A stretch of DNA of 53,648 nucleotides, from sequence record MT446403.1; one strand, written 5' to 3'. Source of the stretch: Escherichia virus TH29. Of the stretch, positions 1 to 53,648 are shown one piece after another (positions within the stretch are counted from its first letter, which is position 1; the number at the start of each line of letters is the position of its first letter). The notes below the pieces were generated by a model. That model was not told where the DNA came from. It saw nothing but the letters and a program-made list of their open reading frames with translations, and ran no database searches. A program made the position numbers and the translations under genes.

Positions 1-17
1 TCAATTCCAACTAATGT
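1..17 (-). promoter_or_regulatory. Conserved motif copy tcaattCCAACTAATGT at the repeat boundary
   Basis: Member of a motif family with at least 9 copies; this one sits exactly at the first base of the terminal repeat. Confidence 0.4.
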
Positions 18-187
18 CGAATACTCTTCTTGCAAACAGGACAAGTGATGAATCTGTATGCAAAGTATCCTCGGTCATTCTTTCCTGTGTACATCTTTAA
101 GTCAGAGAACACGTAAGATATTGCAGAGAAACATACCCACACTGGCGTGTGAATGTTACGTTATCCTTTTCCAAAACTTTTATCATT

Positions 188-204
188 TCAATTCCAACTA
201 ATGT
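188..204 (-). promoter_or_regulatory. Conserved motif copy tcaattCCAACTAATGT
   Basis: Identical 17-mer to positions 1-17, 187 bp further in. Confidence 0.4.
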
Positions 205-274
205 TTCAGAATTATTCCAATATTCCAAACAAAAAGAATAATAAGAATAAATTAAAAATAAATGAAGAAAGTTC

Positions 275-304
275 TTGACACCCATTTGGCGATAGGTGTA
301 TAAT
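275..304 (+). promoter_or_regulatory. Consensus sigma70-type promoter (TTGACA, 18-bp spacer, TATAAT) with AT-rich upstream tract
   Basis: Perfect -35 TTGACA at 275-280 and perfect -10 TATAAT at 299-304; AT-rich 240-270 resembles an UP element. Points opposite to all genes. Confidence 0.6.
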
Positions 305-330
305 GCCTTTCTTCCCTAAGAGGTCAGAAT

Positions 331-346
331 CAAATCCCACTAATGT
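331..346 (-). promoter_or_regulatory. Conserved motif copy caaatCCCACTAATGT (variant)
   Basis: Third motif copy inside the terminal repeat, one mismatch to the core. Confidence 0.35.
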
Positions 347-414
347 TTCAGACGAAGTGCCGAAGGCGAATCCTCTCCCAAACCCGCTTGGAACAAGATG
401 CCTCCGGCCTGGAA

Positions 415-651
415 CTATACTGCTTTCCAATCTGAATCAAACAGTTCCTTTGGTCTTGAATAAATTATCGAATTAATTCCCAAGAAAGTGTGATTTCCAT
501 ACTTCTTAACTTCCTGGTAAGCAAATCCATCTACCCAATTACCGCAGTGGGTTTTAATCTTTGTAGCAAACAGAATTCGGTAGTAGTGACCACGTGGCTG
601 GTGGAAGAGAATATCTTCTGGCTTGATTGAGTTGATATTTAAATCAGACAT
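415..651 (-). CDS. Hypothetical small protein, lies inside the terminal repeat so it is present twice
   Basis: 78-aa ORF (MSDLNINSIKPEDILFH...); identical copy at 53338-53574. Confidence 0.5.
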   Translation of the reverse strand: MSDLNINSIKPEDILFHQPRGHYYRILFATKIKTHCGNWVDGFAYQEVKKYGNHTFLGINSIIYSRPKELFDSDWKAV

Positions 652-1192
652 TTAAGAACAATACCCCTTCGGAGAAGATGTAGTCACTGCCGTAATCTTT
701 GGTGATTGCATCCCAATCAATATATGGCGCAAGGCGGTCTGGAATATCCAGTGCTTCACTTTGCTTCAAATATTCTGCAATTGAGTCGCAACGTGTGATG
801 AACATGTCGTTCAAACTATCCACGGTGAAAATATCAATCTCACCACTACGGAATGCCGCAAGAATTACAAACAAATCAGTGTCATTTAAAAGTTCATTGA
901 ATTTGTCATACTTGCGTAGGCTGAATAGGCCATCAACAAAGCAAACTTCTGTAACATCCTCATCTCTTGATTCGAGAATGTCATAAGTCCCTGTTTCTGG
1001 GTACTCGATGCCATATTCTTCGTGTAAATATTCTGACATGTTGAAGCCATAGAGCCGCCATGCCAGACCATCAATCCAAGCATCTTCATACTCGGAATTG
1101 TTTTCGCCTGTGTAGAAACGAACCAATAAGGTTTCATCTCTACGCCAGGACTTAAGCTGTTCTACTGCTTGAGTAATGTTATCGTTTTGCAT
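644..1192 (-). CDS. Hypothetical protein
   Basis: ORF 644-1246; likely start at MQNDNIT. Acidic protein with no recognised motif. Confidence 0.5.
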   Translation of the reverse strand: MQNDNITQAVEQLKSWRRDETLLVRFYTGENNSEYEDAWIDGLAWRLYGFNMSEYLHEEYGIEYPETGTYDILESRDEDVTEVCFVDGLFSLRKYDKFNELLNDTDLFVILAAFRSGEIDIFTVDSLNDMFITRCDSIAEYLKQSEALDIPDRLAPYIDWDAITKDYGSDYIFSEGVLFLNV

Positions 1193-1469
1193 TGAGTTTC
1201 TCCCACATACCTTGAAGTTCCATGTTAAGGATTTTGAGCTGTTCAATTCGCTCTTTCCCGCCCTTGACCATTATACTTAGGATGGCGGCCTTCTCTTCAT
1301 ATGTTACTAGATAACAGCATCTGCCAACCTCAATTTCGTGTCTCAGACTACGGGAATCTTGCACATGATTTGACAAATGTTGGTGGAGTTCTGCCTCTGC
1401 ACGAGACGTACGCTCCTGCATACGCTCTAATTCTTTCGGTATTTCCTGATATTCCATCGGATGCTCCAT
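1179..1469 (-). CDS. Hypothetical protein (charged, coiled-coil-like)
   Basis: 96-aa ORF immediately downstream of the M15 peptidase gene. Confidence 0.45.
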   Translation of the reverse strand: MEHPMEYQEIPKELERMQERTSRAEAELHQHLSNHVQDSRSLRHEIEVGRCCYLVTYEEKAAILSIMVKGGKERIEQLKILNMELQGMWEKLNAKR

Positions 1470-1477
1470 TGATGAAG

Positions 1478-1873
1478 TTATGCTGGAAGTTCGAAGTGCG
1501 GTGCGTCGAGGAATTTAGCCCATTTCACTGGCTTAGTGAAGGTTCGTTCCCATGTTCCGCCCCAACGAATTACAACTCCAAGCTCTTTTGCAGCTTTGAA
1601 CATGTGTTCAGCCACAATTTGGAATCGTTCGAGGTCATTCCAGTCAATTGGATATGGTGCAATATCCAAAGCATTGCCTGACATATGTCGGCTAATAGAT
1701 ACTTTGGTTGCACCCTGCTTTAAAAGCTCTTGTTGACGTTCATAAGAGCGTAAACCTTCCAAAACAGTTACGTCAAAAGGCATGGTTTCACATGCCCGTT
1801 TGAAAACTGCAACTAATGAAGGATTTACTCCCTTAAGTCGGTCTAAAGAACGTTGACCGAGCTTAACATTCAT
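1478..1873 (-). CDS. Endolysin, L-alanyl-D-glutamate peptidase (M15 family, T5 Lys-like)
   Basis: 131 aa with SRHMSGNALDIAPY, WGGTW and DAPHFEL, matching zinc-dependent M15 phage peptidases. Confidence 0.8.
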   Translation of the reverse strand: MNVKLGQRSLDRLKGVNPSLVAVFKRACETMPFDVTVLEGLRSYERQQELLKQGATKVSISRHMSGNALDIAPYPIDWNDLERFQIVAEHMFKAAKELGVVIRWGGTWERTFTKPVKWAKFLDAPHFELPA

Positions 1874-2148
1874 TATTTACCCTTTAACGCATCGTTTAAA
1901 GTATTGTTTAACAGTGTGTTGAGGTTATCAAGTTCATTAAATGCCGCCTGGGCCTTGGTAACTTCATCAACAAGTAATGCTCGAAGGACTGTATGCTCAA
2001 CAAGAACCCATCCGTCAATACAGTCGATGAAAACTTTAACTTTATCGACTGGAGCATTTAAATCAAAGGCAGATAAGTCAGATTTGGCATTGTCCAACTT
2101 GCCTTTTGCCTTACTCAGTTCAACTGGAACTTGGTCAATTGAAATCAT
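1873..2148 (-). CDS. Hypothetical protein
   Basis: 91-aa ORF in a tight same-strand array with overlapping stop/start. Confidence 0.45.
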   Translation of the reverse strand: MISIDQVPVELSKAKGKLDNAKSDLSAFDLNAPVDKVKVFIDCIDGWVLVEHTVLRALLVDEVTKAQAAFNELDNLNTLLNNTLNDALKGK

Positions 2149-2501
2149 TTAATTAGAAATGCCTTAATAGTTGCCGCAGATGGCATAGCTACTTCACCCA
2201 TGCCGCCAATAGGCTTCTCAACACCTTCAAGTGCCTGATTAACAGCCGCTTGACCCGCAGTATGAGCAGCAGAAAGTTGACCGTGAAAGGTCATTTGAGA
2301 CAACAGAATATTCTGTTGAATTTGCCAATATTCCTGTAAAGGAACGTAGGTCCATTCGTCATTTGTCTGGTCATAGAGTTTAATTTCTCTGGCACCAGAC
2401 TCAAACATTGCTGTCAGACGTGCTACATATTCTTGTTGACGTCCTACAGACGTTTCAACCGATTTTGCATATGCAGGCAAATCTTTAATATCAATATTCA
2501 T
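2145..2501 (-). CDS. Hypothetical protein
   Basis: 118-aa ORF with 4-nt overlaps to both neighbours. Confidence 0.5.
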   Translation of the reverse strand: MNIDIKDLPAYAKSVETSVGRQQEYVARLTAMFESGAREIKLYDQTNDEWTYVPLQEYWQIQQNILLSQMTFHGQLSAAHTAGQAAVNQALEGVEKPIGGMGEVAMPSAATIKAFLIK

Positions 2502-2731
2502 TGAAATTTATTCCCACTTGGGTGGATGGTTAATTTGAAGGATGCTAACTCCTTATTGATTGAGGTTGTTCCAATAACTGTTGCCTCAAACAACATAGAT
2601 TTAGCAGTTTCCTTCCCCACACGTTCCAAGTATTTTACAACTCGGTCGTGAATTACTGCCCATTGGCGATATTCGCAATCGGATTCCAGCAGGTATTGAA
2701 CTCCATCAATGATAAATTCGGATGACGTCAT
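2498..2731 (-). CDS. Hypothetical protein
   Basis: 77-aa ORF, translationally coupled to neighbours. Confidence 0.45.
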   Translation of the reverse strand: MTSSEFIIDGVQYLLESDCEYRQWAVIHDRVVKYLERVGKETAKSMLFEATVIGTTSINKELASFKLTIHPSGNKFQ

Positions 2732-3078
2732 TTAACTTCCTTACAATAGGTTGATAACAATGGAAATTTGGCATGAAAGAAGTCAATGTCACGGTAAATC
2801 TGTAGCACCAAACGTTCCTCAGCGTCAACACCAACTAAGGCCAGCTTACTGCTCTGTGTATTGTAGAACACTGTTGACATTGGGTTAGGATTTCCATTGT
2901 CTGGAATCTCAATCCATGTACCTTCGTGCAAAGAAATTGTTACAATGAGTGGCTGGCTCATTGTGATTGTTTCAACAGACATTTTGTATCCGCCACACTG
3001 GAAGCTGCGAACAGATGCTTCTGATTTGAATGCGAATACTCCAAACAAAATTGTGAGTGCAATATATAAAGTTTTCAT
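2728..3078 (-). CDS. Putative secreted/periplasmic protein
   Basis: 116 aa; N-terminus MKTLYIALTILFGVFAFKSEA looks like a cleavable signal peptide. Confidence 0.5.
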   Translation of the reverse strand: MKTLYIALTILFGVFAFKSEASVRSFQCGGYKMSVETITMSQPLIVTISLHEGTWIEIPDNGNPNPMSTVFYNTQSSKLALVGVDAEERLVLQIYRDIDFFHAKFPLLSTYCKEVK

Positions 3079-3080
3079 GA

Positions 3081-3302
3081 CTACTTCGTTACAAGTGGAT
3101 TTCTATATGCCCAAGGTCTGGATAAGAGTTCTATTTTAAATCCCTCGTATCCACTCTCTTTTGAAAGACTTTCTCTAGCAACTGAAATGGCATTTTGCAA
3201 AGTCAGTCTTCCGTCGATAGCAATATTTCCAAAGCTACCACAAGCATCACTCAACTCACCTTTCAAGTCTCGTGTAAGCATTGTTGCATAATAACTTGCC
3301 AT
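3081..3302 (-). CDS. Hypothetical protein
   Basis: 73-aa ORF; GGAGG Shine-Dalgarno just upstream of the ATG. Confidence 0.5.
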   Translation of the reverse strand: MASYYATMLTRDLKGELSDACGSFGNIAIDGRLTLQNAISVARESLSKESGYEGFKIELLSRPWAYRNPLVTK

Positions 3303-3329
3303 AATTCCTCCTAATAATAATAATTAATC

Positions 3330-3355
3330 GAGGCCACTCGAAGTGGAATGGCCTC
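3330..3355 (-). terminator. Intergenic hairpin, possible terminator or processing site
   Basis: GAGGCCA...TGGCCTC 7-bp inverted repeat followed on the minus strand by a U/A-rich tract and the next gene's RBS. Confidence 0.3.
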
Positions 3356-3361
3356 TGTTAA

Positions 3362-4051
3362 TTACAGCTTCTTAATAAGCTCTGCGGATTTGCTTGCGGC
3401 AACTTTCATTTCACCCCGTGCGGCTTTAACGATTGATGCCTTGTCCACGCGAATGTTGCAGTTGCCGATTGCAATCTTGCCATCTGCTGTTGGTGCAAGT
3501 TGCTGTAAGTCAAGCATTTGCTCCAGCTTTTGCAGAAGAATATGTTGTGCTTCGATTGCATTTTGGATATTTAAAGTTTCCATTGTTGCTCTTACCTTTC
3601 TTGAATAAGTTCCGCTTAACGTTAGGCGTACTTGCAAACCTTTTACACCATCATGGTCAATATTGACTTTATTGTATGGTGAGTATGGATGCTTGTACGC
3701 ATTTGTAACAGTTGCCCAATTGCCCTTGTACCAAATAATATCACCAACTTCTACATCAGCGCCTTTAACATCCTCTTCATCTGAGAATGGTTTCACTGCT
3801 TCACCATAAGGGAGAAACACTGGTGTTATCTGTGTGCTGAATGTCGCTGTTGGAGTTCCCAAAGCTGGTGGCCTGTCGAGCACTTTGACTATGCGGCCAA
3901 ATTCAAAATTGTAGTACCCACCAGAATATTGCAACTGAACTGCATCACTAAACCGGAGGATGTTTTCAATCCGGTATTCCCTGTTGCCGTAAACCAATAC
4001 ATCACCAGGCTTTACCAAATTGGCAGGTATTTCGACAAATTTATTTGCCAT
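3362..4051 (-). CDS. Hypothetical protein
   Basis: ORF 3362-4063; probable start at MANKFVEIP. Confidence 0.55.
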   Translation of the reverse strand: MANKFVEIPANLVKPGDVLVYGNREYRIENILRFSDAVQLQYSGGYYNFEFGRIVKVLDRPPALGTPTATFSTQITPVFLPYGEAVKPFSDEEDVKGADVEVGDIIWYKGNWATVTNAYKHPYSPYNKVNIDHDGVKGLQVRLTLSGTYSRKVRATMETLNIQNAIEAQHILLQKLEQMLDLQQLAPTADGKIAIGNCNIRVDKASIVKAARGEMKVAASKSAELIKKL

Positions 4052-4156
4052 GATATTCCTCACGCATTTCTGAACAATGTTTGCAAAACCAAATGGTTAC
4101 ATAATCGTTTTCGTGTGAAATTTCCCAATTATGTAGCCCTATAAAACATAGAATTT

Positions 4157-4552
4157 TCATCGATTAAGTCCCTCTCCGTTTTCGGCATGCCACTCATTAT
4201 GGTGGCGAGGACACAACCAGCGAACATCAAGTGGTTTGTTGTAATCATCATGGTGAGCATGAGTTATTTCACAGCCACATACTTGACAGGGTTTTACTTG
4301 TAATCGTCCACTCCTAATGGCAAGATTCACCTTATTTTGTGCCTTGTATTGATTAGGATACTTCTTCCTGGCATCATTAAGGCCATTACCGTGATAACCC
4401 CGTTTGCGGTCATAGTTTCGGTAATAGTCAATCTTCTCTGCACGGTTTGCCCGTACCTTAGCACATCTGCAAACTTTACATGTCTTGTCATTGGCGTAGA
4501 AGTCTGTAGGAGCTTTTAAACTCCCGCAGATTTTACATTGCTTATCCATCAA
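4157..4552 (-). CDS. HNH endonuclease
   Basis: 131 aa with Cys pairs (CKICG, CKVCRC, CQVCGC) and HAHHDDYNKPLDVRWLCPRHHNEWH HNH motif. Confidence 0.75.
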   Translation of the reverse strand: MMDKQCKICGSLKAPTDFYANDKTCKVCRCAKVRANRAEKIDYYRNYDRKRGYHGNGLNDARKKYPNQYKAQNKVNLAIRSGRLQVKPCQVCGCEITHAHHDDYNKPLDVRWLCPRHHNEWHAENGEGLNR

Positions 4553-8983: not shown

Positions 8984-9000
8984 TCACATCCAACTAATGT
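8984..9000 (-). promoter_or_regulatory. Conserved motif copy tcacatCCAACTAATGT
   Basis: Just downstream (minus sense) of the RNAP terminator and upstream of the repeat-rich region. Confidence 0.45.
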
Positions 9001-9062
9001 CGAATATTGAAACAATATTACATGCAGCAATATTGCTTGAATATTGGGAATTAAAGGATTTA

Positions 9063-9109
9063 ATTAATAAAGAATAAAGAAAGGGCCATCACCTTTCGAT
9101 GACAGCCCT
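9063..9109 (-). terminator. Rho-independent terminator after the RNA polymerase gene
   Basis: Hairpin AGGGC/GCCCT plus CATC/GATG at 9082-9109, followed on the minus strand by UUCUUUAUUCUUUAUU, directly after the stop at 9117-9119. Confidence 0.6.
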
Positions 9110-9116
9110 AGGTCTA

Positions 9117-11057
9117 TTACTGGCAGAAGTAGTAAGCGTGTTCGCTCATAAGCAGCTCTTCAGTAACAATGTTCTCGTGGTACATGTTGATGCCACCAAG
9201 TTGCTTAGACAGAGATTCAAACTGGTTATTATGAACAAAGATTTCAATATAAGCAGAACGAATAACTTCCATCATTTTAGGAGCATCAGCCAAGCAGCAA
9301 CGGAAACAATCGTGAATTGAAGTAAAGCCACGAAGACCAGCTTCTTTAGCTTTGACTGCAACAGTACGAGCAACCAATGCGTCAATACCTTGAATGTAGT
9401 TAACAACGAAGGTACGCTTGAATTCTTCTTTAGTTGGATTGGACTCACGAATGGTCCAAGGCTTATTCTCCTGAATCTGACCAAAGATGACACGAGTTTG
9501 ACTATCAACACGAATGCTGAATGCATCACAAACATCACGAGATGGGAAGCAAGGCTTCATTACAACTTGACCATCAGTGTGCTTATAGGTGATGTACTCT
9601 TTGTTGAGTTCAACACAACGAGCAAATGCAGCATCAGCAGCTTTCTCAATGAACATGTTAATCTTAGCACCCAATGCGTTATGGATTGCTTCTACACACA
9701 GTTCAGCAAATGCCTCAGCTTTCTCCATAGGAATCTGGAGCGCTTCTGTCATGTATGCAATGAAGTCAGAAGAACCAGTTAATGCAGCTTTACCACCACC
9801 ATATTGGATAGCCATGTATGGAGTTTTGATAAACTTACGACCAGCTTTCGGATTCAAGAATTCATCCATAATTTCAGCGGATGGTTTCATTGAAGAACGG
9901 TCTAATAACTTCAACAGTTCACGGAGAGATAACTGGTATGGGTCAGATGCTTTAGTCTCAGAATCAACCAGACCTGTAGCACGAGCCATTTCCATGTTAC
10001 CAGCAATGAATGCCAGATATTGAGTACCAGAACATTTAGCATCTAAGCCAAAGCCTACACGAGAATCACACTCACCTGTAGTCTCAAACTTGAACCAATC
10101 CAGAGCCAGACGAACATAAGTGAATGGCTTAGAAGGACGCTCACCTTTAGGCATGTTCAGCATACGAGCCAAAGAACCAGCAGGATTCTGTGCAACATAG
10201 GTTAAACGTTTTGCAGAAGTCCAGTCTCCACCAGCAATATCTTCCAGCTCAAGCATGAACATGTTGTATGCCAGAGTTGTTGAACCATCAGCATTAAACT
10301 TGCTCACAGTGTTCTCAACATTGTGGGAATACAGGCAACGAGCAAAGTCAGATGATTGTGGGTTAGGACCAGCACATGCTACATGATACAAACGACCACG
10401 GTTATCAGCAAAGTAGTCAGAGAACAGAGTGTCCTGACCAACCATTGCTACAGCATTGTTCCAAACATGGAGTTCAGTCTGGATTGCTTCTGGCATCTGT
10501 AAGCCACCAAATGTACGTTGTTCTAACATGGAAGAGATAACCCTAACCATTGTTGCATCAACGTGATATTCAGTATCTTGCAGGAATTCGATTGCAGCTT
10601 TCAGAGTTTTGGATGGCTTAACTTTGCCACCTTTAACGAAAGGCTTGCGACGAGATTCAGTTGTTACCTTCTCAGTGAATGGAACTGAGGTATCTTTGGT
10701 TGTAACCAGTTCAACCCATGCATCAGTCATCTGGAACGATTTGTCCTCGTTCATGGTGATGAAACCGAAGTGTTTAGCCAGACCAATCAGGTTGATAGCT
10801 GGGTCAACATAGTGCATTGACTTTAAGTCGTTGTTGTAACGGTTGGCATCAGCAATGGAAGCAGAAGCCAGTTCAACCATCGAGATAGCTGGAATAACGT
10901 CATCACGCGTGAAAGACGTCATCATCTTGAATATGGCTAAGGCAGCAATAGCACAAGTCTGAGGCTGCATATAGTTCTGCTTCTCTTTGGCACGGTATAC
11001 CAGAGCGGTGATAGCAGGGACAACAGATTTGATAGTTTGAGTAGTGATAGTAGTCAT
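9117..11057 (-). CDS. Single-subunit (T7-like) DNA-dependent RNA polymerase, compact form of about 646 aa
   Basis: Motifs align to T7 RNAP: DNRGRLYHV, LDAKCSGTQYLA (motif A), RKFIKTPYMAIQYGGG (motif B), IHDCFRCCLAD (motif C). Start set at MTTITTQ (ATG 11055-11057, GGAGA RBS), not the ORF-track TTG at 11144. Confidence 0.85.
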   Translation of the reverse strand: MTTITTQTIKSVVPAITALVYRAKEKQNYMQPQTCAIAALAIFKMMTSFTRDDVIPAISMVELASASIADANRYNNDLKSMHYVDPAINLIGLAKHFGFITMNEDKSFQMTDAWVELVTTKDTSVPFTEKVTTESRRKPFVKGGKVKPSKTLKAAIEFLQDTEYHVDATMVRVISSMLEQRTFGGLQMPEAIQTELHVWNNAVAMVGQDTLFSDYFADNRGRLYHVACAGPNPQSSDFARCLYSHNVENTVSKFNADGSTTLAYNMFMLELEDIAGGDWTSAKRLTYVAQNPAGSLARMLNMPKGERPSKPFTYVRLALDWFKFETTGECDSRVGFGLDAKCSGTQYLAFIAGNMEMARATGLVDSETKASDPYQLSLRELLKLLDRSSMKPSAEIMDEFLNPKAGRKFIKTPYMAIQYGGGKAALTGSSDFIAYMTEALQIPMEKAEAFAELCVEAIHNALGAKINMFIEKAADAAFARCVELNKEYITYKHTDGQVVMKPCFPSRDVCDAFSIRVDSQTRVIFGQIQENKPWTIRESNPTKEEFKRTFVVNYIQGIDALVARTVAVKAKEAGLRGFTSIHDCFRCCLADAPKMMEVIRSAYIEIFVHNNQFESLSKQLGGINMYHENIVTEELLMSEHAYYFCQ

Positions 11058-11124
11058 TTGTAAGTCTCCAAGATTGTGTATGATTTGAATGAAACGGATT
11101 ATAATAGCGTAGCCATTACACAAT

Positions 11125-11140
11125 TCACGTCCAACTAATA
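11125..11140 (-). promoter_or_regulatory. Conserved motif copy tcacgtCCAACTAATa
   Basis: About 70 bp upstream of the RNAP start codon. Confidence 0.45.
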
Positions 11141-11326
11141 TCACAAACCTGTGCCATTGTTAGCACAGCACAGGGACTTTGACCTTGACTCATAAGCGAA
11201 GCGCCTAACTTGGTGTTGTTTGAAAGCCGATAGGCTGCAGGAAAAAGTTGGGGCAGGGACCGTATTTAAGTCCGATAGGACGTTGGGCTTCCCCTCCCCG
11301 CCACCTCAAAAATAAAAATAATATCG

Positions 11327-11401
11327 CCACAATTCTAGTCTCGTCAATATCGTTACAATTCTAGTCTCATTAATATTGTAGCAATTCGAGTCTCATTAAT
11401 T
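11327..11401. repeat. Three tandem 24-25 bp direct repeats (iteron-like)
   Basis: ccacaattctagtctcgtcaatat / gttacaattctagtctcattaatat / gtagcaattcgagtctcattaatt, head to tail. Confidence 0.6.
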
Positions 11402-49769: not shown

Positions 49770-50569
49770 AAAATTGGGTGGGTTTTGGTAACGCAGGTTT
49801 TCCCGAACTGCGAGGCTTGTAGAATCTGTGAGTCGCCTACTGTGTTTTGACATAACATGGGATTGATGGTCCCGACTCACTTCATCTCAGGTACGAGGCA
49901 CTACTTTGCGAGTGCAAGCAGGTGTTGAACCCAAGTACCAACAGGCAACCTAATTTATTCCACCGTTGTGGAAACCATTGGTTAGAGCAGTTTATTTCCA
50001 TGCTCCGGGCAATTCACTTTAAATGAATTAAGTTTGTACTCTGTCACATCCCTACGCGCACTGAGGGACTTAAGTCTGCATTACATCGCAGAATACAAAT
50101 TAATTAATGCTCCGATTTATTAATCACATCTCGAAGCCACAATGCGCCAAATTTGGTTACGTGGGGTTGGAAGACCACGGAGAGAACTTAAATTTAATTA
50201 AGCTGCAACTCGCATTTCAGAATCATTTGCATTTATTTTAAATGAATAAAACAGTCGCAATAACTCCAGGCAGTTTAGGCCCGTCGTAAGACTCAGAAAA
50301 CTACTTCAATTTGCACACAACAAATTTCCCAACATTGCCTTCCGTCGAAGGCTCATGCAATGGTGTTTGAATTATGTACAAATTGAAGCAACTTCAATGA
50401 ACACTCTTGTCTGGGCCACGAGCTTGGGCATCGACCTACCTCCCAACTCTAATCACAAGAATGCTCATTGAAGCCCACTCACTCTGGAATGGGTTCAAGG
50501 CAGCACCGGACAACTTCCAGTGCATGCCAGATCGATTTAGCTTAGCTTCTCAAGTTTGCTCTTGGCAAC

Positions 50570-50908
50570 TTAGAATACCGGAGCTTCTTCTACAGCAGCT
50601 TCTGCTACTGCAACAGCGGCTTCTTCTTCGACCTTAACTTCTTTCACGGTGTCGAACACAGTGCGTTCAACTTCCGGACAACCAGCTTCAACCCACGGCA
50701 GGTAGAATGCCAGGAATGCAGCAGCGGTGTTGGTCTGCATTGAGCGAGAACGGTCAATCAGTTTGTTGGTGTTTGCGAACGCTTCAACAGCAGCTTCAAT
50801 TTTAGCGCCGTTTTCCAGTTTAAAATCGTGTGCGTTACACTCAGCTTCGCTCAGGAACAGGGAACCATCGTTAGCTTCGTACTGAGTTACGGTTACAATC
50901 TTAGCCAT
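50570..50908 (-). CDS. Hypothetical early protein with acidic Ala/Glu-rich C-terminus
   Basis: ORF 50570-50995; likely start MAKIVTVTQ at 50908; motif copy about 80 bp upstream. Confidence 0.5.
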   Translation of the reverse strand: MAKIVTVTQYEANDGSLFLSEAECNAHDFKLENGAKIEAAVEAFANTNKLIDRSRSMQTNTAAAFLAFYLPWVEAGCPEVERTVFDTVKEVKVEEEAAVAVAEAAVEEAPVF

Positions 50909-50985
50909 TTGTATATACCTTATATTAAATAGTTTTGCACGCCACGGTGACGTGACTGTAGATAGATTAAAGAGCCTTTCTCTTT

Positions 50986-51002
50986 TCACATCCAATTAAT
51001 GT
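50986..51002 (-). promoter_or_regulatory. Conserved motif copy tcacatCCAAtTAATGT
   Basis: One mismatch to the core; upstream of gene 50570-50908. Confidence 0.45.
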
Positions 51003-51031
51003 GTCAGGACTGCTCTGATTTAACAAACAAC

Positions 51032-51706
51032 TCAATACATATTGAATCGTTCGATTGTTTTGATTACCAAATCCTTTGTCTCAGCGACAGTGAGTTCAGT
51101 GATGATTGATTCGTCATAACCCTCAATCTGGATTGCTACAAAACGCCCAACTCCTGTTACGGTAAGTCGGTTAGTTCTGTCACGAACAACTACACCAGCT
51201 TCTTGCGCGACTGCTCGCAACAATTTCCAGCGTAAAGTTCGGTTTGGTACAGCAAAGCCCTTTGTCAAGAACAACTCTTTCATGAGTTCCCCAAGGCAAA
51301 CAGCTTCAATGTTTTGTCCTCTTCCAACTAATTCTTGCAACAGGCACAACGTCAACATTTCTAAATTGTTGAAGTGACCAGCGCGCTCCAAGTTAAAGAA
51401 CTCTGGAGGAACAGTCGAACGAGATTTAACAGCTTGCTTATATGCACGTTCTTCTTCCTGTGCAGCAAGCATCAGCATCTCTGGCTTAATGTACTTCATA
51501 GCAGAGAAGCCAGCGCGGGTGGCTTTAATTATGCGACAAGCCTCTTTCATCTTGTAGCGTTGCCACTCACCGCGCTTCGATTCTGGATTAAAATGGACCC
51601 ACATAATGATGACATCTTCCTTGGCAAGATAGACGGCATCATTATCATTGAGCCATTGCTTGCACGTTGATAGTGCAATCTCTTTGTCATCATCATGATA
51701 AGACAT
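51032..51706 (-). CDS. Hypothetical early protein
   Basis: ORF 51032-51763; likely start MSYHDDDK at 51706. Confidence 0.5.
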   Translation of the reverse strand: MSYHDDDKEIALSTCKQWLNDNDAVYLAKEDVIIMWVHFNPESKRGEWQRYKMKEACRIIKATRAGFSAMKYIKPEMLMLAAQEEERAYKQAVKSRSTVPPEFFNLERAGHFNNLEMLTLCLLQELVGRGQNIEAVCLGELMKELFLTKGFAVPNRTLRWKLLRAVAQEAGVVVRDRTNRLTVTGVGRFVAIQIEGYDESIITELTVAETKDLVIKTIERFNMY

Positions 51707-51707
51707 T

Positions 51708-52085
51708 TTAGTGGCCTTGTAGGATACGTTTGTTCGCAGTTTCTGCGTCGATTCCCAAATCAACTAATGTAACCAAGCACTGTGAAATCCGCTCTTGCGC
51801 AGCTTTCTCCAGAATTTGGTATTTTTCGTCGTTAACGCCTAACACATTCTTGGCATGAATGAGTGTAGCCATTAGGCCATGCCCCAAAGCAACTGCTTGC
51901 ATTGCCTGGAGTTCAAAGTTGATTGTGATACCAGCGAGTTCATGCTCTTTCTGGATAATCTCAATCAACTCTTCTTTCGATTTGTCTTGTAAGTTCAAAA
52001 TGGAACTCCGTACATTGGCTGGTCTGTTGTCCAGCTGTAAATGAAAGATTTGGACAGAAGATGCTCGACTGGCTTGCCGAAGCAA
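51708..52085 (-). CDS. Hypothetical early protein
   Basis: 125-aa ORF; N-terminal extent uncertain because it overlaps the upstream ORF. Confidence 0.45.
   Translation of the reverse strand: MLRQASRASSVQIFHLQLDNRPANVRSSILNLQDKSKEELIEIIQKEHELAGITINFELQAMQAVALGHGLMATLIHAKNVLGVNDEKYQILEKAAQERISQCLVTLVDLGIDAETANKRILQGH
51755..51770 (-). promoter_or_regulatory. Conserved motif copy ccaaatCAACTAATGT (variant)
   Basis: About 55 bp upstream of the MSYHDDDK start, inside the 3' end of the upstream gene. Confidence 0.35.
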
Positions 52086-52285
52086 TATTCCATGAAGGAT
52101 GGGTTGTAGGTTGCATTGTTTAACAATTCTTTAATCGAATACTTATTCATAAAGAATGCAAACTTTGAGTCGCTTCCTTCCCAACCAAATATATAAAACT
52201 TTCCACCCAAGAAAGCAAATGCTTCCATCTCTCCTGTGTGAATATTACGGGCCTTAATGACCCGGATAGAATGTTTGCGAATCAT
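51995..52285 (-). CDS. Hypothetical protein, first gene after the right-hand non-coding region
   Basis: 96-aa ORF; ATG at 52283-52285 with GGAGAG RBS. Confidence 0.5.
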   Translation of the reverse strand: MIRKHSIRVIKARNIHTGEMEAFAFLGGKFYIFGWEGSDSKFAFFMNKYSIKELLNNATYNPSFMEYCFGKPVEHLLSKSFIYSWTTDQPMYGVPF

Positions 52286-52923
52286 AGGAACTCTCCAATT
52301 TTCGATTCGATGTTTGTGACGCTTCTCTCATCTTTTGGCCTTGTGGAAACAGCCACAGGGTAGCGCAGGAAGCCCGATTTCCGGGCCGTAGCCTACCGTT
52401 TGTGTCAATTCTGGATAACTGCATTGGCGAAGGGTTACTCCCGTTAGGGTGCGATACGCTAATCACATGAGTGTCGTCGCCTTACGGCTCAGGCGTGTCA
52501 CAGAGGCTTTGCAACCCTTCCCAATACATTCACCCAAATACCAGCTTTGGCGTAGCTGGTGGCTCTGTTTTGTGCGGATTATGCCACTCTAAGCCCTGTT
52601 TGTCCGACTTCCTCGGAGCACCAGCGGCTTGTGGCACAAACCTATTTTAGAATGACTAACATAAGCATGAGGCATAACCCTCTAATTATTCAGCCCTAAC
52701 AGCTTGCTTATTCAGTACCAATTCAACCCAATACATACACAACTATATACAATAGCGAACTATCTGCGAAAACTATCCGGCCCTATGGCCTAAGTTAAAG
52801 TTAATAGTGTGTGATGGAAACATTCCATCGAAAATAACTTTGCAGAATGAGTCGAACATTCTCACACGTCTAGCGGCCGCAACGGTCTACCGAGTTACAA
52901 AGTTATTATCTGATGTTGTTTCT

Positions 52924-53648
52924 TCAATTCCAACTAATGTCGAATACTCTTCTTGCAAACAGGACAAGTGATGAATCTGTATGCAAAGTATCCTCGGTCA
53001 TTCTTTCCTGTGTACATCTTTAAGTCAGAGAACACGTAAGATATTGCAGAGAAACATACCCACACTGGCGTGTGAATGTTACGTTATCCTTTTCCAAAAC
53101 TTTTATCATTTCAATTCCAACTAATGTTTCAGAATTATTCCAATATTCCAAACAAAAAGAATAATAAGAATAAATTAAAAATAAATGAAGAAAGTTCTTG
53201 ACACCCATTTGGCGATAGGTGTATAATGCCTTTCTTCCCTAAGAGGTCAGAATCAAATCCCACTAATGTTTCAGACGAAGTGCCGAAGGCGAATCCTCTC
53301 CCAAACCCGCTTGGAACAAGATGCCTCCGGCCTGGAACTATACTGCTTTCCAATCTGAATCAAACAGTTCCTTTGGTCTTGAATAAATTATCGAATTAAT
53401 TCCCAAGAAAGTGTGATTTCCATACTTCTTAACTTCCTGGTAAGCAAATCCATCTACCCAATTACCGCAGTGGGTTTTAATCTTTGTAGCAAACAGAATT
53501 CGGTAGTAGTGACCACGTGGCTGGTGGAAGAGAATATCTTCTGGCTTGATTGAGTTGATATTTAAATCAGACATTTAAGAACAATACCCCTTCGGAGAAG
53601 ATGTAGTCACTGCCGTAATCTTTGGTGATTGCATCCCAATCAATATAT
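52924..53648. repeat. Right copy of direct terminal repeat (identical to 1-725)
   Basis: Exact repeat of the left end, including the three motif copies, the sigma70 promoter (53198-53227) and the 78-aa ORF (53338-53574). Confidence 0.9.

What the first reader, a model, noticed from the sequence alone, without database searches (positions are those of the whole stretch)
275..304. Perfect sigma70 consensus promoter inside the terminal repeat, oriented against every gene
TTGACA, an 18-bp spacer, TATAAT and an AT-rich upstream tract make one of the strongest host-type promoters in the window, yet it fires on the plus strand while all genes are on the minus strand. In the left copy it would transcribe antisense into the 415-651 and 644-1192 genes; in the right copy (53198-53227) it points off the genome end or across a concatemer junction. 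Possible roles (inference only): antisense control of the left-end genes, transcription-activated replication, host RNAP-driven DNA entry, or a small non-coding RNA.
Basis: partly seen in the sequence, partly recalled or inferred. Interest (0 to 1): 0.6.

Follow-up and report, generated by a model that had tools for sequence, protein, structure and literature searches.

The report
Conserved backward-facing host promoter in phage
The sequence is a real and strongly conserved host-type promoter that points against every gene of a Chaseviridae phage, but it lies in an internal control region rather than a genome end, and the "terminal repeat" around it is an assembly overlap.

Summary
The motif is there as described: TTGACA, 18 bp, TATAAT at 275-304 (+). 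It is the only 12/12 site in the window (0.043 expected per shuffled genome), and an 83% A+T tract lies upstream.

The window is a Carltongylesvirus-like phage (Chaseviridae) with all genes on the minus strand. The same perfect hexamers, with the same 18-bp spacing, strand and syntenic slot, occur in 5 lineages (E. coli, Yersinia, Erwinia, Pectobacterium and Aeromonas phages), although the spacer sequence differs. I rate it a functional sigma70 promoter at about 0.85.

The "terminal repeat" is not biological. An independent assembly of the identical phage carries the 725-bp segment once, in mid-contig. Mapped Chaseviridae terminal repeats (2.3-3.1 kb, holding the RNA polymerase gene) correspond to about window 8991-11270. 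The promoter is therefore single-copy, about 20% in from the left end.

It sits after the early operon's hairpin, between two putative phage-polymerase promoters, and faces one of them with start sites about 20 nt apart. The RNA it would make is not conserved, so polymerase binding or firing is probably what matters.

- **Favoured role (about 0.35):** a T7-style transcription-activated origin.
- **Close rival (about 0.3):** head-on transcriptional interference at the early/middle boundary.
- **Complication:** in Loessnervirus the two hexamers are only 8 bp apart.

The parts
275..280 (+). -35 hexamer TTGACA
   Evidence: Invariant in 13 close relatives. Also present in 4HA13, Faunus, phiA050 and PM1.
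278..299 (+). Dyad or hairpin-capable element that fills the 18-nt spacer (ACACCCAT-N6-ATAGGTGT). On the gene-strand RNA it makes 8 pairs, one of them a G.U pair.
   Evidence: Equivalent dyads with different arm sequences occur in PYps23T, 4HA13, Faunus and phiA050. A random spacer reaches a stem of 6 or more bp with P = 0.028, and 7 or more with P = 0.0056. The dyad is absent in PM1. It is unique in this genome.
299..304 (+). -10 hexamer TATAAT, always preceded by TG and followed by G
311..311 (+). Predicted transcription start, 7 nt after the -10 hexamer. This is inferred, not measured. Positions 306-317 are all pyrimidines.
   Evidence: Sequence. The spacing rule for sigma70 promoters is established knowledge.
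211..274 (.). A+T-rich tract (83% A+T) with short repeats: ATTCCAA at 214 and 222, GAATAA at 236 and 245. It could be an UP-element-like upstream region and/or an easily unwound tract.
   Evidence: Repeat number differs between genera. The first 35 nt next to P5 are invariant across 4 genera.
188..210 (-). Phage-polymerase promoter-like motif P5 (ACATTAGTTGGAATTGA), divergent from the sigma70 site
   Evidence: Annotated as 'putative phage promoter 5' in GJ1 and as 'promoter' in SA91KD. The motif has 14 hits in the window, 13 on the gene strand, against 0.84 expected.
330..352 (-). Phage-polymerase promoter-like motif P4, convergent with the sigma70 site. Its downstream edge lies at +20 of the predicted sigma70 transcript.
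   Evidence: A P4-like core lies 34-47 nt after the -10 hexamer in all N18 lineages.
358..410 (-). Strong hairpin that ends the upstream (early) operon
   Evidence: -30.6 kcal/mol, z = -3.05 in the window; z = -4.5 for the GJ1 equivalent. SA91KD annotates a terminator at this position.
415..1192 (-). The 78-aa gene (415-651, PHROG 2652, function unknown) and the ArdA-like antirestriction gene (644-1192). These are the first genes a + strand transcript would run antisense to.
   Evidence: Annotations of relatives.
1..187 (-). Variable 187-bp cassette bounded by direct copies of the phage-promoter motif (1-17 and 188-204). It is absent from GJ1, TH37 and 4HA13 and replaced by other inserts in PYps3T and phiA050.
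52924..53648 (.). Wrap-around duplicate of 1-725, including the second 'copy' of the promoter at 53198-53227. It is an assembly overlap, not a physical terminal repeat.

Best explanation
This is a genuine, single-copy promoter for the host sigma70 RNA polymerase. It belongs to a conserved non-coding control module of a Carltongylesvirus-like (Chaseviridae) phage, about 20% in from the physical left end. The module lies between the early gene block and the block leading to the DNA-metabolism genes.

Proposed sequence of events:
1. Host polymerase binds TTGACA-18-TATAAT, helped by the A+T-rich tract upstream.
2. It fires leftward from about position 311, against all genes.
3. Within about 20 nt it meets the putative phage-polymerase promoter P4 head-on. 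It then meets the hairpin and the 3' end of the early operon.

Only the polymerase-binding geometry and the promoter arrangement are conserved, not the transcribed sequence. The act of binding or transcribing therefore probably matters more than any RNA product. The event is probably early-only, and ends once phage polymerase fires through the site from P4.

Most likely use: activation and/or leftward priming of a T7-style, transcription-dependent replication origin. That origin would be formed by P4, the A+T-rich repeat tract and P5.

Shown: the anatomy, single-copy status, position and conservation. Inferred: promoter activity, the start site, the timing and the origin role.

My probabilities are about 0.85 that it is a functional sigma70 promoter and about 0.35 that the origin-linked role is correct. 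The confidence field refers to the whole statement.
For: Promoter identity:
- It is the only 12/12 site in the genome, against 0.043 expected.
- Both hexamers and the 18-nt spacing are kept in 14 Carltongylesvirus-like phages (17 nt in PYps23T), and in Sabourvirus 4HA13, Faunus, Aeromonas phiA050 and Suwonvirus PM1. Strand and slot are always the same, while the spacer sequence differs.
- Hexamer columns are 12/12 invariant, against 5/18 spacer columns (Fisher p = 9e-5).
- Block 188-352 is 95-100% identical to relatives whose flanking genes are 71-96% identical.

Internal, single-copy position.

Origin-like anatomy:
- Two tandem phage-promoter motifs bracket one of the most A+T-rich tracts of the genome.
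- The tract is made of short direct and inverted repeats whose number varies between genera.
- The module lies in the conserved non-coding region of about 0.4-1.1 kb, at 20.5% of the genome, upstream of the small genes that precede the helicase-primase and DNA polymerase genes.
- T7 has its primary origin (phi1.1A, phi1.1B and an A+T-rich tract) at about 15% of its genome. T7 also has a leftward host promoter, A0, back-to-back with phiOL. The link between phiOL and a secondary origin is my own knowledge, not a tool result.

No conserved RNA product.
Against: - No transcript, promoter-activity or replication-initiation data exist for any Chaseviridae in the library searched.
- Cumulative GC skew is monotonic, with no inflection at the module.
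- The T7 primary origin needs no host promoter.
- The A+T tract could simply be an UP element, and the repeats could be regulator sites.
- PM1 keeps the promoter and P4 but lacks the ATTCCAA repeats and an adjacent P5. The most constant partner of the promoter is therefore the convergent P4 and operon end, which suits the interference rival equally well.
- In Loessnervirus (Y2, SSEM1, EaPF7) both hexamers persist but are only 8 bp apart, a geometry sigma70 cannot use.
- The predicted start falls in a 12-nt pyrimidine run.
- The phage-promoter motifs are themselves only predicted, and the ICTV profile says the family's promoters are not yet identified.
Confidence: 0.35

Rival explanations
1. 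Head-on transcriptional interference, or an insulator, at the early/middle boundary. Host polymerase sitting on or firing from the consensus promoter would block read-through of rightward host transcription out of the early operon. It would also occlude the phage promoter P4. Once phage polymerase accumulates, firing from P4 would sweep the host enzyme off and silence the antisense promoter. The result would be a temporal switch with no RNA product needed.
For: - The convergent layout with P4 and with the early operon's hairpin is the most constant feature in all N18 lineages, including PM1.
- The P4 edge lies at +20 of the predicted sigma70 transcript in this phage. The P4 core lies 34-47 nt after the -10 hexamer in all five lineages.
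- A dyad fills the spacer in 4 of 5 lineages, as in operator-controlled promoters.
- No RNA product is conserved.
Against: - Other phage-promoter motifs (P5, P3) lie just downstream, so blocking P4 alone would not delay middle transcription.
- The distance to P4 varies, and is about 105 nt in Loessnervirus.
- Antisense firing into the antirestriction gene early in infection looks costly.
- There is no experimental support.
Confidence: 0.3
2. A cis-antisense RNA regulator. The + strand transcript would pair with the 3' part of the early mRNA (the 78-aa gene, the ArdA-like gene, perhaps the endolysin) and lower its stability or translation. Lambda oop RNA does this to cII mRNA.
For: - The geometry fits: the transcript is fully complementary to 415-651 and 644-1192.
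- The promoter is strong and conserved.
- The first 200 nt of the RNA are C-rich and G-poor (C/G = 1.6). By inference, Rho would probably cut an untranslated transcript short.
Against: - No + strand intrinsic terminator within 2.7 kb.
- No significant structure (z = -1.18) and no Rfam family.
- The transcribed sequence is not conserved between genera, apart from the P4 motif.
- Silencing an antirestriction gene at the moment of entry seems counter-productive.
Confidence: 0.12
3. Not a working sigma70 promoter. The two hexamers and the dyad would be conserved for another reason. Examples are a binding site for a phage protein, or a 5' stem-loop with flanks in the gene-strand RNA made from P4. 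The resemblance to the sigma70 consensus would then be secondary.
For: - In three Loessnervirus phages both hexamers are intact at a spacing of only 8 bp, while the 8-mer between them differs in all three.
- The mismatches in the Carltongylesvirus dyad are C.A on the + strand but G.U on the gene-strand RNA. This is weak evidence, since two events give about a 0.25 chance.
- Identity across the whole 165-bp block could partly reflect recombination between phages rather than selection on the promoter.
Against: - Exactly the 12 consensus positions are invariant across five lineages, at the spacing sigma70 needs (17-18 nt). The spacer and the neighbouring tracts change in sequence, and the neighbours also change in length.
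- A hairpin alone does not explain the invariant ATTAT and CAA outside the stem.
- PM1 has the promoter without the dyad.
Confidence: 0.1
4. The promoter would lie in a physical terminal repeat and act at genome ends, through transcription off the end or across concatemer junctions, or by pulling DNA into the cell.
For: - The window does carry the 725-bp segment at both ends.
- The left edge of the repeat coincides with a phage-promoter motif.
Against: - An independent assembly of the identical genome has the segment once, in mid-contig.
- Mapped family terminal repeats are 2.3-3.1 kb and lie elsewhere. The mapped PYps23T and Y2 repeats contain the RNA polymerase gene.
- The repeat truncates a gene.
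- The promoter points towards the left end from 10.8 kb inside the genome.
Confidence: 0.02

Closest known systems
Phage T7 'E. coli promoter A0 (leftward)' beside the T7 promoter phiOL
   Same: A host-type promoter that points against the otherwise unidirectional genes of a phage with its own single-subunit RNA polymerase. It stands back-to-back with a phage-polymerase promoter, with short repeats between them. From my own knowledge, A0 has no established function and phiOL is associated with a secondary replication origin.
   Different: - A0 lies about 60 nt from the end of the 160-bp terminal repeat and is a weak match (TTGACT-17-TAGGCT).
- The site here is 10.8 kb inside the genome, is a perfect consensus, is conserved across genera, and also faces a second phage promoter head-on.
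- There is no sequence homology.
Phage T7 primary replication origin (phi1.1A, phi1.1B and a downstream A+T-rich tract)
   Same: Tandem phage-polymerase promoters with an A+T-rich tract, at 15-20% of the genome, in a phage with a T7-like polymerase, helicase-primase and DNA polymerase set.
   Different: - The T7 origin contains no host promoter.
- Here the A+T tract lies between the two phage motifs and is built of short repeats.
- Origin activity is untested.
Lambda oop (and paQ) antisense promoters
   Same: A constitutive host promoter convergent with an upstream gene, whose transcript would overlap that gene's 3' end. The lambda details are from my own knowledge.
   Different: oop is a defined 77-nt RNA ending at an intrinsic terminator. 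No + strand terminator, conserved RNA sequence or conserved structure is found here.
Face-to-face promoter switches (for example coliphage 186 pR/pL)
   Same: Two convergent promoters whose start sites are tens of nucleotides apart, so that firing of one interferes with the other. The 186 details are from my own knowledge.
   Different: Here the two promoters would be read by two different polymerases, one from the host and one from the phage. No lysogeny decision is involved, and interference is untested.

Membership tests
Sigma70 (housekeeping) promoter | -35 hexamer close to TTGACA | tested here: met
   6/6 at 275-280.
Sigma70 (housekeeping) promoter | -10 hexamer close to TATAAT, with A at position 2 and T at position 6 | tested here: met
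   6/6 at 299-304.
Sigma70 (housekeeping) promoter | Spacer of 17 +/- 1 bp | tested here: met
   18 bp here and in 17 other phages, and 17 bp in PYps23T. Not met in Loessnervirus, where the spacer is 8 bp.
Sigma70 (housekeeping) promoter | Selective constraint on the hexamers and their spacing rather than on the spacer sequence | tested here: met
   12/12 hexamer columns invariant against 5/18 spacer columns across 4 lineages, p = 9e-5. PM1 adds a fifth lineage.
Sigma70 (housekeeping) promoter | Transcription start and activity with the host holoenzyme | not testable with these tools
   No transcript data found for the family.
Chaseviridae direct terminal repeat | Present twice in virion DNA, at the physical ends | tested here: not met
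   The Logan contig SRR11772969_1093 is 100% identical and holds the segment once, in mid-contig. The homologous region lies at 9.6-10.1 kb in PYps23T, whose ends were mapped experimentally.
Chaseviridae direct terminal repeat | Length of about 2.3-3.1 kb, containing the RNA polymerase gene | tested here: not met
   The segment is 725 bp and contains a truncated antirestriction-like gene.
T7-type transcription-dependent replication origin | Phage-polymerase promoter(s) reading into an A+T-rich tract | tested here: inconclusive
   The motifs and the tract are present, but the motifs are only predicted promoters.
T7-type transcription-dependent replication origin | Replication initiates there | not testable with these tools
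   GC skew is uninformative.
T7 A0-type leftward host promoter | Host promoter on the anti-gene strand, divergent from a phage promoter, next to the terminal repeat | tested here: inconclusive
   The anti-gene strand and the divergence from P5 are met. The position next to a terminal repeat is not met.
oop-type short antisense RNA | Intrinsic terminator that defines a short RNA, with conserved RNA sequence or structure | tested here: not met
MerR-type regulated promoter | Over-long 19-20-bp spacer carrying the regulator's dyad | tested here: not met
   A dyad is present, but the spacer is 18 bp, or 17 bp in PYps23T.

The most novel reading that the evidence does not exclude
The 165-bp module (P5, the repeat-built A+T tract, the backward sigma70 promoter with a hairpin-forming spacer, and P4) is the primary replication origin of Chaseviridae and, at the same time, their early-to-middle switch. 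Host and phage RNA polymerases would be set head-on about 20 nt apart. The host enzyme would open or prime the origin leftward at entry. The phage enzyme would then take over rightward priming and shut the host promoter off.
Probability: 0.3. Interest if true: 0.6.

Novelty: new member of a known kind. Interest (0 to 1): 0.4.

Why it matters
Chaseviridae are myoviruses that carry a T7-like RNA polymerase. Their ICTV profile states that their promoters have not yet been identified, and I found no transcript map for any member.

This site is the clearest host-polymerase signal in the genome. The best site on the gene strand scores only 10/12. Yet it points the wrong way, and it has been kept in perfect form in phages of at least five host genera.

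It gives a precise, cheap experimental handle for several questions:
- how host and phage polymerases hand over to each other in this family;
- where replication starts;
- what a leftward host promoter such as T7 A0 might be for.

It also corrects the genome map. The ends of this contig are not the ends of the virion DNA.

Tried and rejected
- **GC and AT skew.** I computed cumulative skew on the genome rotated to the inferred physical left end. It is monotonic with no inflection at the module, so it says nothing about an origin.
- **Known RNA families.** An Rfam scan of 1-1600 on both strands gave only sub-threshold noise. There are no tRNAs in the window.
- **RNA structure.** The fold of + strand RNA 311-520 gives z = -1.18, which is not significant.
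- **Small + strand ORFs after the promoter.** The first ATG (343) has no ribosome-binding site, and the reading frame is not conserved even within the genus (read). I rejected this.
- **More copies of the spacer dyad elsewhere in the genome** (a regulon). None were found.
- **Functions of neighbouring proteins.** Pfam and PHROGs give only a weak, sub-threshold ArdA match and families of unknown function.
- **More distant relatives in IMG/VR.** Two DNA patterns and one protein query returned only known isolates, one close metagenomic relative and chance hits.
- **Phage-promoter motif as the packaging cut site.** Both boundaries of the mapped PYps23T repeat fall right after ATTAGTTGGA, but the mapped Y2 repeat does not start or end at the motif. 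This is not a family rule.
- **Literature.** The GJ1 and Y2 genome papers are not held. The ST32, 4HA13, PP101 and 'Tiny' papers say nothing about this site or about transcripts.

Full report
**What the window is.** Megablast and blastn of the left end hit about 50 phage records at 80-93% identity. They include ST32, phiEcoM-GJ1, flopper, Mangalitsa, SA91KD and the PYps phages, all Chaseviridae, subfamily Cleopatravirinae, mostly genus Carltongylesvirus. [quoted passage not shown] In the window that strand is the minus strand.

**The observation.** TTGACA lies at 275-280, followed by 18 nt and TATAAT at 299-304 on the + strand.
- A scan of the whole window shows this is the only 12/12 site on either strand.
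- The runner-up is 11/12 with a 19-nt spacer. No gene-strand site exceeds 10/12.
- 300 dinucleotide shuffles of the unique genome give a mean of 0.043 perfect sites.
- The 64 nt upstream (211-274) are 83% A+T, and that region holds the second most A+T-rich 60-mer cluster in the genome.

So the site is real, correctly placed, and unlikely to arise by chance even in one genome.

**The "terminal repeat".** Window 1-725 is identical to 52924-53648, but the repeat ends inside the antirestriction-like gene 644-1192. Three lines of evidence show it is a wrap-around of a circularised assembly.
- A 52,892-bp Logan contig from run SRR11772969 is 100% identical to the window across the junction (4192..1 continuing into 52923..50567). 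It carries the segment once, at 26-33 kb of that contig. An ENA scaffold agrees with this.
- The family has long terminal repeats: about 3 kb in the ICTV profile, 2,339 bp mapped by restriction, PCR and run-off sequencing in PYps23T, 2.6 kb in Y2 and PM1, and a predicted 3,120 bp in 4HA13.
- The PYps23T repeat, which contains the RNA polymerase gene, maps at 94-97% identity to window 11129 down to about 8991. The Y2 repeat (2,608 bp, verified in the record) starts about 140 nt further upstream.

Rotated to that left end, the promoter lies at 10.8 kb of 52.9 kb, which is 20.5%. There is one copy per genome and it is internal. Every idea that relied on a genome end falls with this.

**What surrounds it.** A 17-nt motif, ACATTAGTTGGAWKTGA, occurs 14 times at up to 3 mismatches. 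Thirteen of those are on the gene strand, against 0.84 expected. The GJ1 and SA91KD records annotate its copies as putative phage-polymerase promoters, although the ICTV profile regards the family's promoters as unidentified.

In gene orientation the local order is:
1. the ArdA-like gene;
2. the 78-aa gene;
3. a strong hairpin at 358-410 (z = -3.05, and -4.5 in GJ1), where SA91KD annotates a terminator;
4. motif P4 (352..330);
5. the sigma70 site on the other strand;
6. the A+T tract with ATTCCAA x2 and GAATAA x2;
7. motif P5 (210..188);
8. a variable 187-bp cassette;
9. motif P3;
10. about 460 nt more of non-coding DNA.

The sigma70 site is therefore divergent from P5 across the A+T tract and convergent with P4. 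The edge of P4 lies at +20 of the predicted sigma70 transcript.

**Conservation within the genus.** In 13 relatives the block 188-352 is 95-100% identical to the window. The adjoining hairpin region is 71-73% identical and the two genes are 71-96% identical. Both hexamers are invariant. The spacing is 18 nt, except 17 nt in PYps23T.

**Conservation between genera.** A perfect TTGACA-N18-TATAAT is found on the anti-gene strand, in the same slot after the antirestriction gene and the small gene, in four further lineages:
- Sabourvirus 4HA13;
- Faunusvirus Faunus;
- Aeromonas phage phiA050;
- Suwonvirus PM1.

Their ArdA-like proteins are only 29-35% identical to the one here. The spacer sequences differ. 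In the five-sequence alignment, 12/12 hexamer columns are invariant against 5/18 spacer columns (p = 9e-5). The flanking tracts differ by tens of nucleotides in length, yet the spacer length does not change. This is the signature of selection for sigma70 geometry, and it is why I put about 0.85 on a working promoter.

In every one of these lineages an A+T-rich tract precedes the -35 hexamer, and a P4-like core (ACTAA) follows the -10 hexamer by 34-47 nt on the other strand.

**Extra features.** The spacer holds a dyad.
- Here it is ACACCCAT-N6-ATAGGTGT. It makes 8 pairs on the gene-strand RNA, including one G.U pair (-8.8 kcal/mol), but is interrupted on the + strand.
- PYps23T, 4HA13, Faunus and phiA050 have 6-7-bp dyads with different arm sequences.
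- A random spacer reaches 6 or more bp with P = 0.028, and 7 or more with P = 0.0056.
- PM1 lacks the dyad, and it occurs nowhere else in this genome.

It could be an operator or a 5' stem-loop of the P4 transcript. I cannot tell which.

**A complication.** In Loessnervirus (Y2, SSEM1, EaPF7) both hexamers are intact but only 8 bp apart, and the 8-mer differs in all three phages. Sigma70 cannot use that pair. Either the promoter was lost there by a 10-bp deletion or the hexamers have a second role. This keeps a "not a promoter" rival alive at about 0.1.

**What the transcript would be.**
- No + strand intrinsic terminator lies within 2.7 kb.
- There is no Rfam match and no significant fold.
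- No small ORF is conserved.
- Apart from the P4 motif, the transcribed sequence is not conserved between genera.
- The first 200 nt are C-rich and G-poor (C/G = 1.6). By inference, an untranslated RNA would probably be ended by Rho.
- The predicted start falls in a pyrimidine run.

I conclude that polymerase binding or firing matters, not a specific RNA.

**Mechanism.** Two readings fit about equally well.

(a) *Origin-linked.* Tandem phage-polymerase promoters around a very A+T-rich, repeat-built tract, at 20% of the genome and upstream of the replication genes, resemble the T7 primary origin at 15%. T7 also has a leftward host promoter, A0, back-to-back with phiOL. Firing of the sigma70 site and P5 in opposite directions would underwind the tract between them, and a leftward host transcript could prime the first leftward strand. 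I put this at about 0.35.

(b) *Head-on interference at the early/middle boundary.* The constant partner of the promoter in all lineages is the convergent P4 and the end of the early operon, and the dyad suggests regulation. I put this at about 0.3.

A true antisense regulator in the style of lambda oop is less likely (0.12), because no defined RNA is evident. End-related roles are excluded.

**Novelty.** None of the records I examined annotates this site. SA91KD annotates only a 10/12 site on the gene strand, and GJ1 annotates only the phage motifs. No held paper mentions it. In kind it is an ordinary sigma70 promoter, with a precedent for the odd orientation in T7 A0. I therefore file it as a new member of a known kind, of moderate interest, with a more interesting but unproven origin/switch reading.

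Noticed in passing
window 8991-11270 (minus strand): By homology with the mapped ends of PYps23T and Y2, the real direct terminal repeat of this phage should be this block of about 2.1-2.3 kb. It contains the phage RNA polymerase gene and is present only once in the window, so the assembly collapsed it.
   Followed up: partly
window 11125-11141 and 8984-9000; L044 1 and 2339: Both boundaries of the experimentally mapped PYps23T repeat fall exactly after ...ATTAGTTGGA of the putative phage-promoter motif. The mapped Y2 repeat does not, so this is not a family rule. It could be real for this clade or an artefact of the mapping.
   Followed up: partly
window 11320-11397: Three tandem 26-bp repeats lie next to the most A+T-rich stretch of the genome (11357-11488, GC 10%), just outside the inferred left end. 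On the gene strand they read as TTGACG-18-TATTAT-like units. They might be early host promoters or packaging-related repeats.
   Followed up: no
whole window, gene strand; window 11098-11103: No sigma70-like site on the gene strand scores above 10/12, so it is unclear how host polymerase first transcribes the phage RNA polymerase gene. A perfect TATAAT without a good -35 hexamer lies about 45 nt upstream of that gene's start.
   Followed up: no
window 1-187: A 187-bp cassette is bounded by direct copies of the promoter motif (1-17 and 188-204). It is absent from GJ1, TH37 and 4HA13 and replaced by unrelated inserts in PYps3T and phiA050. This looks like an insertion hot spot between promoter repeats. 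It holds a 43-aa ORF (11-142) with a CxxC pair.
   Followed up: partly
window 195-253: About 35 nt (CCAACTAATGTT..A..ATTATTCCAATATTCCAAA) are invariant in Carltongylesvirus, 4HA13, Faunus and phiA050, although their proteins are about 30% identical. This stretch is more conserved than the sigma70 site itself. The repeated TTGGAAT core also occurs inside the phage-promoter motif.
   Followed up: partly
window 52812-52828: The palindrome GATGGAAACATTCCATC, in the long non-coding leader downstream of P3, is conserved in 4HA13, Faunus and phiA050. In Y2, SSEM1 and EaPF7 it is replaced by a compensated version (GATAGCATAACGCTATC). This points to a conserved hairpin or a dimer binding site.
   Followed up: no
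L040 ~2940-2960, L041 ~2940-2960, L062 ~2760-2780: Loessnervirus phages keep TTGACA and TATAAT only 8 bp apart, which is one helical turn less than elsewhere. The 8-mer between them is different in each phage.
   Followed up: partly
L007 ~1650-1685; L005 ~1648-1668; L040 ~2885-2910: In phiA050, 4HA13, Faunus and Y2 the + strand just after the sigma70 -10 hexamer carries a sequence resembling the phage-promoter core (CTTAGTTGGAAG and CTTTAATTGATTTGGAA). It is either an antisense phage promoter or the other arm of a hairpin with P4. It is not seen in the window's own genus.
   Followed up: no
window 644-1192: The 'antirestriction protein' label rests on a weak Pfam ArdA match (E = 0.003, 18.6 bits, below the 27-bit cut-off). 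Some records call the same gene 'tail fiber protein' or 'replication inhibitor protein'.
   Followed up: partly
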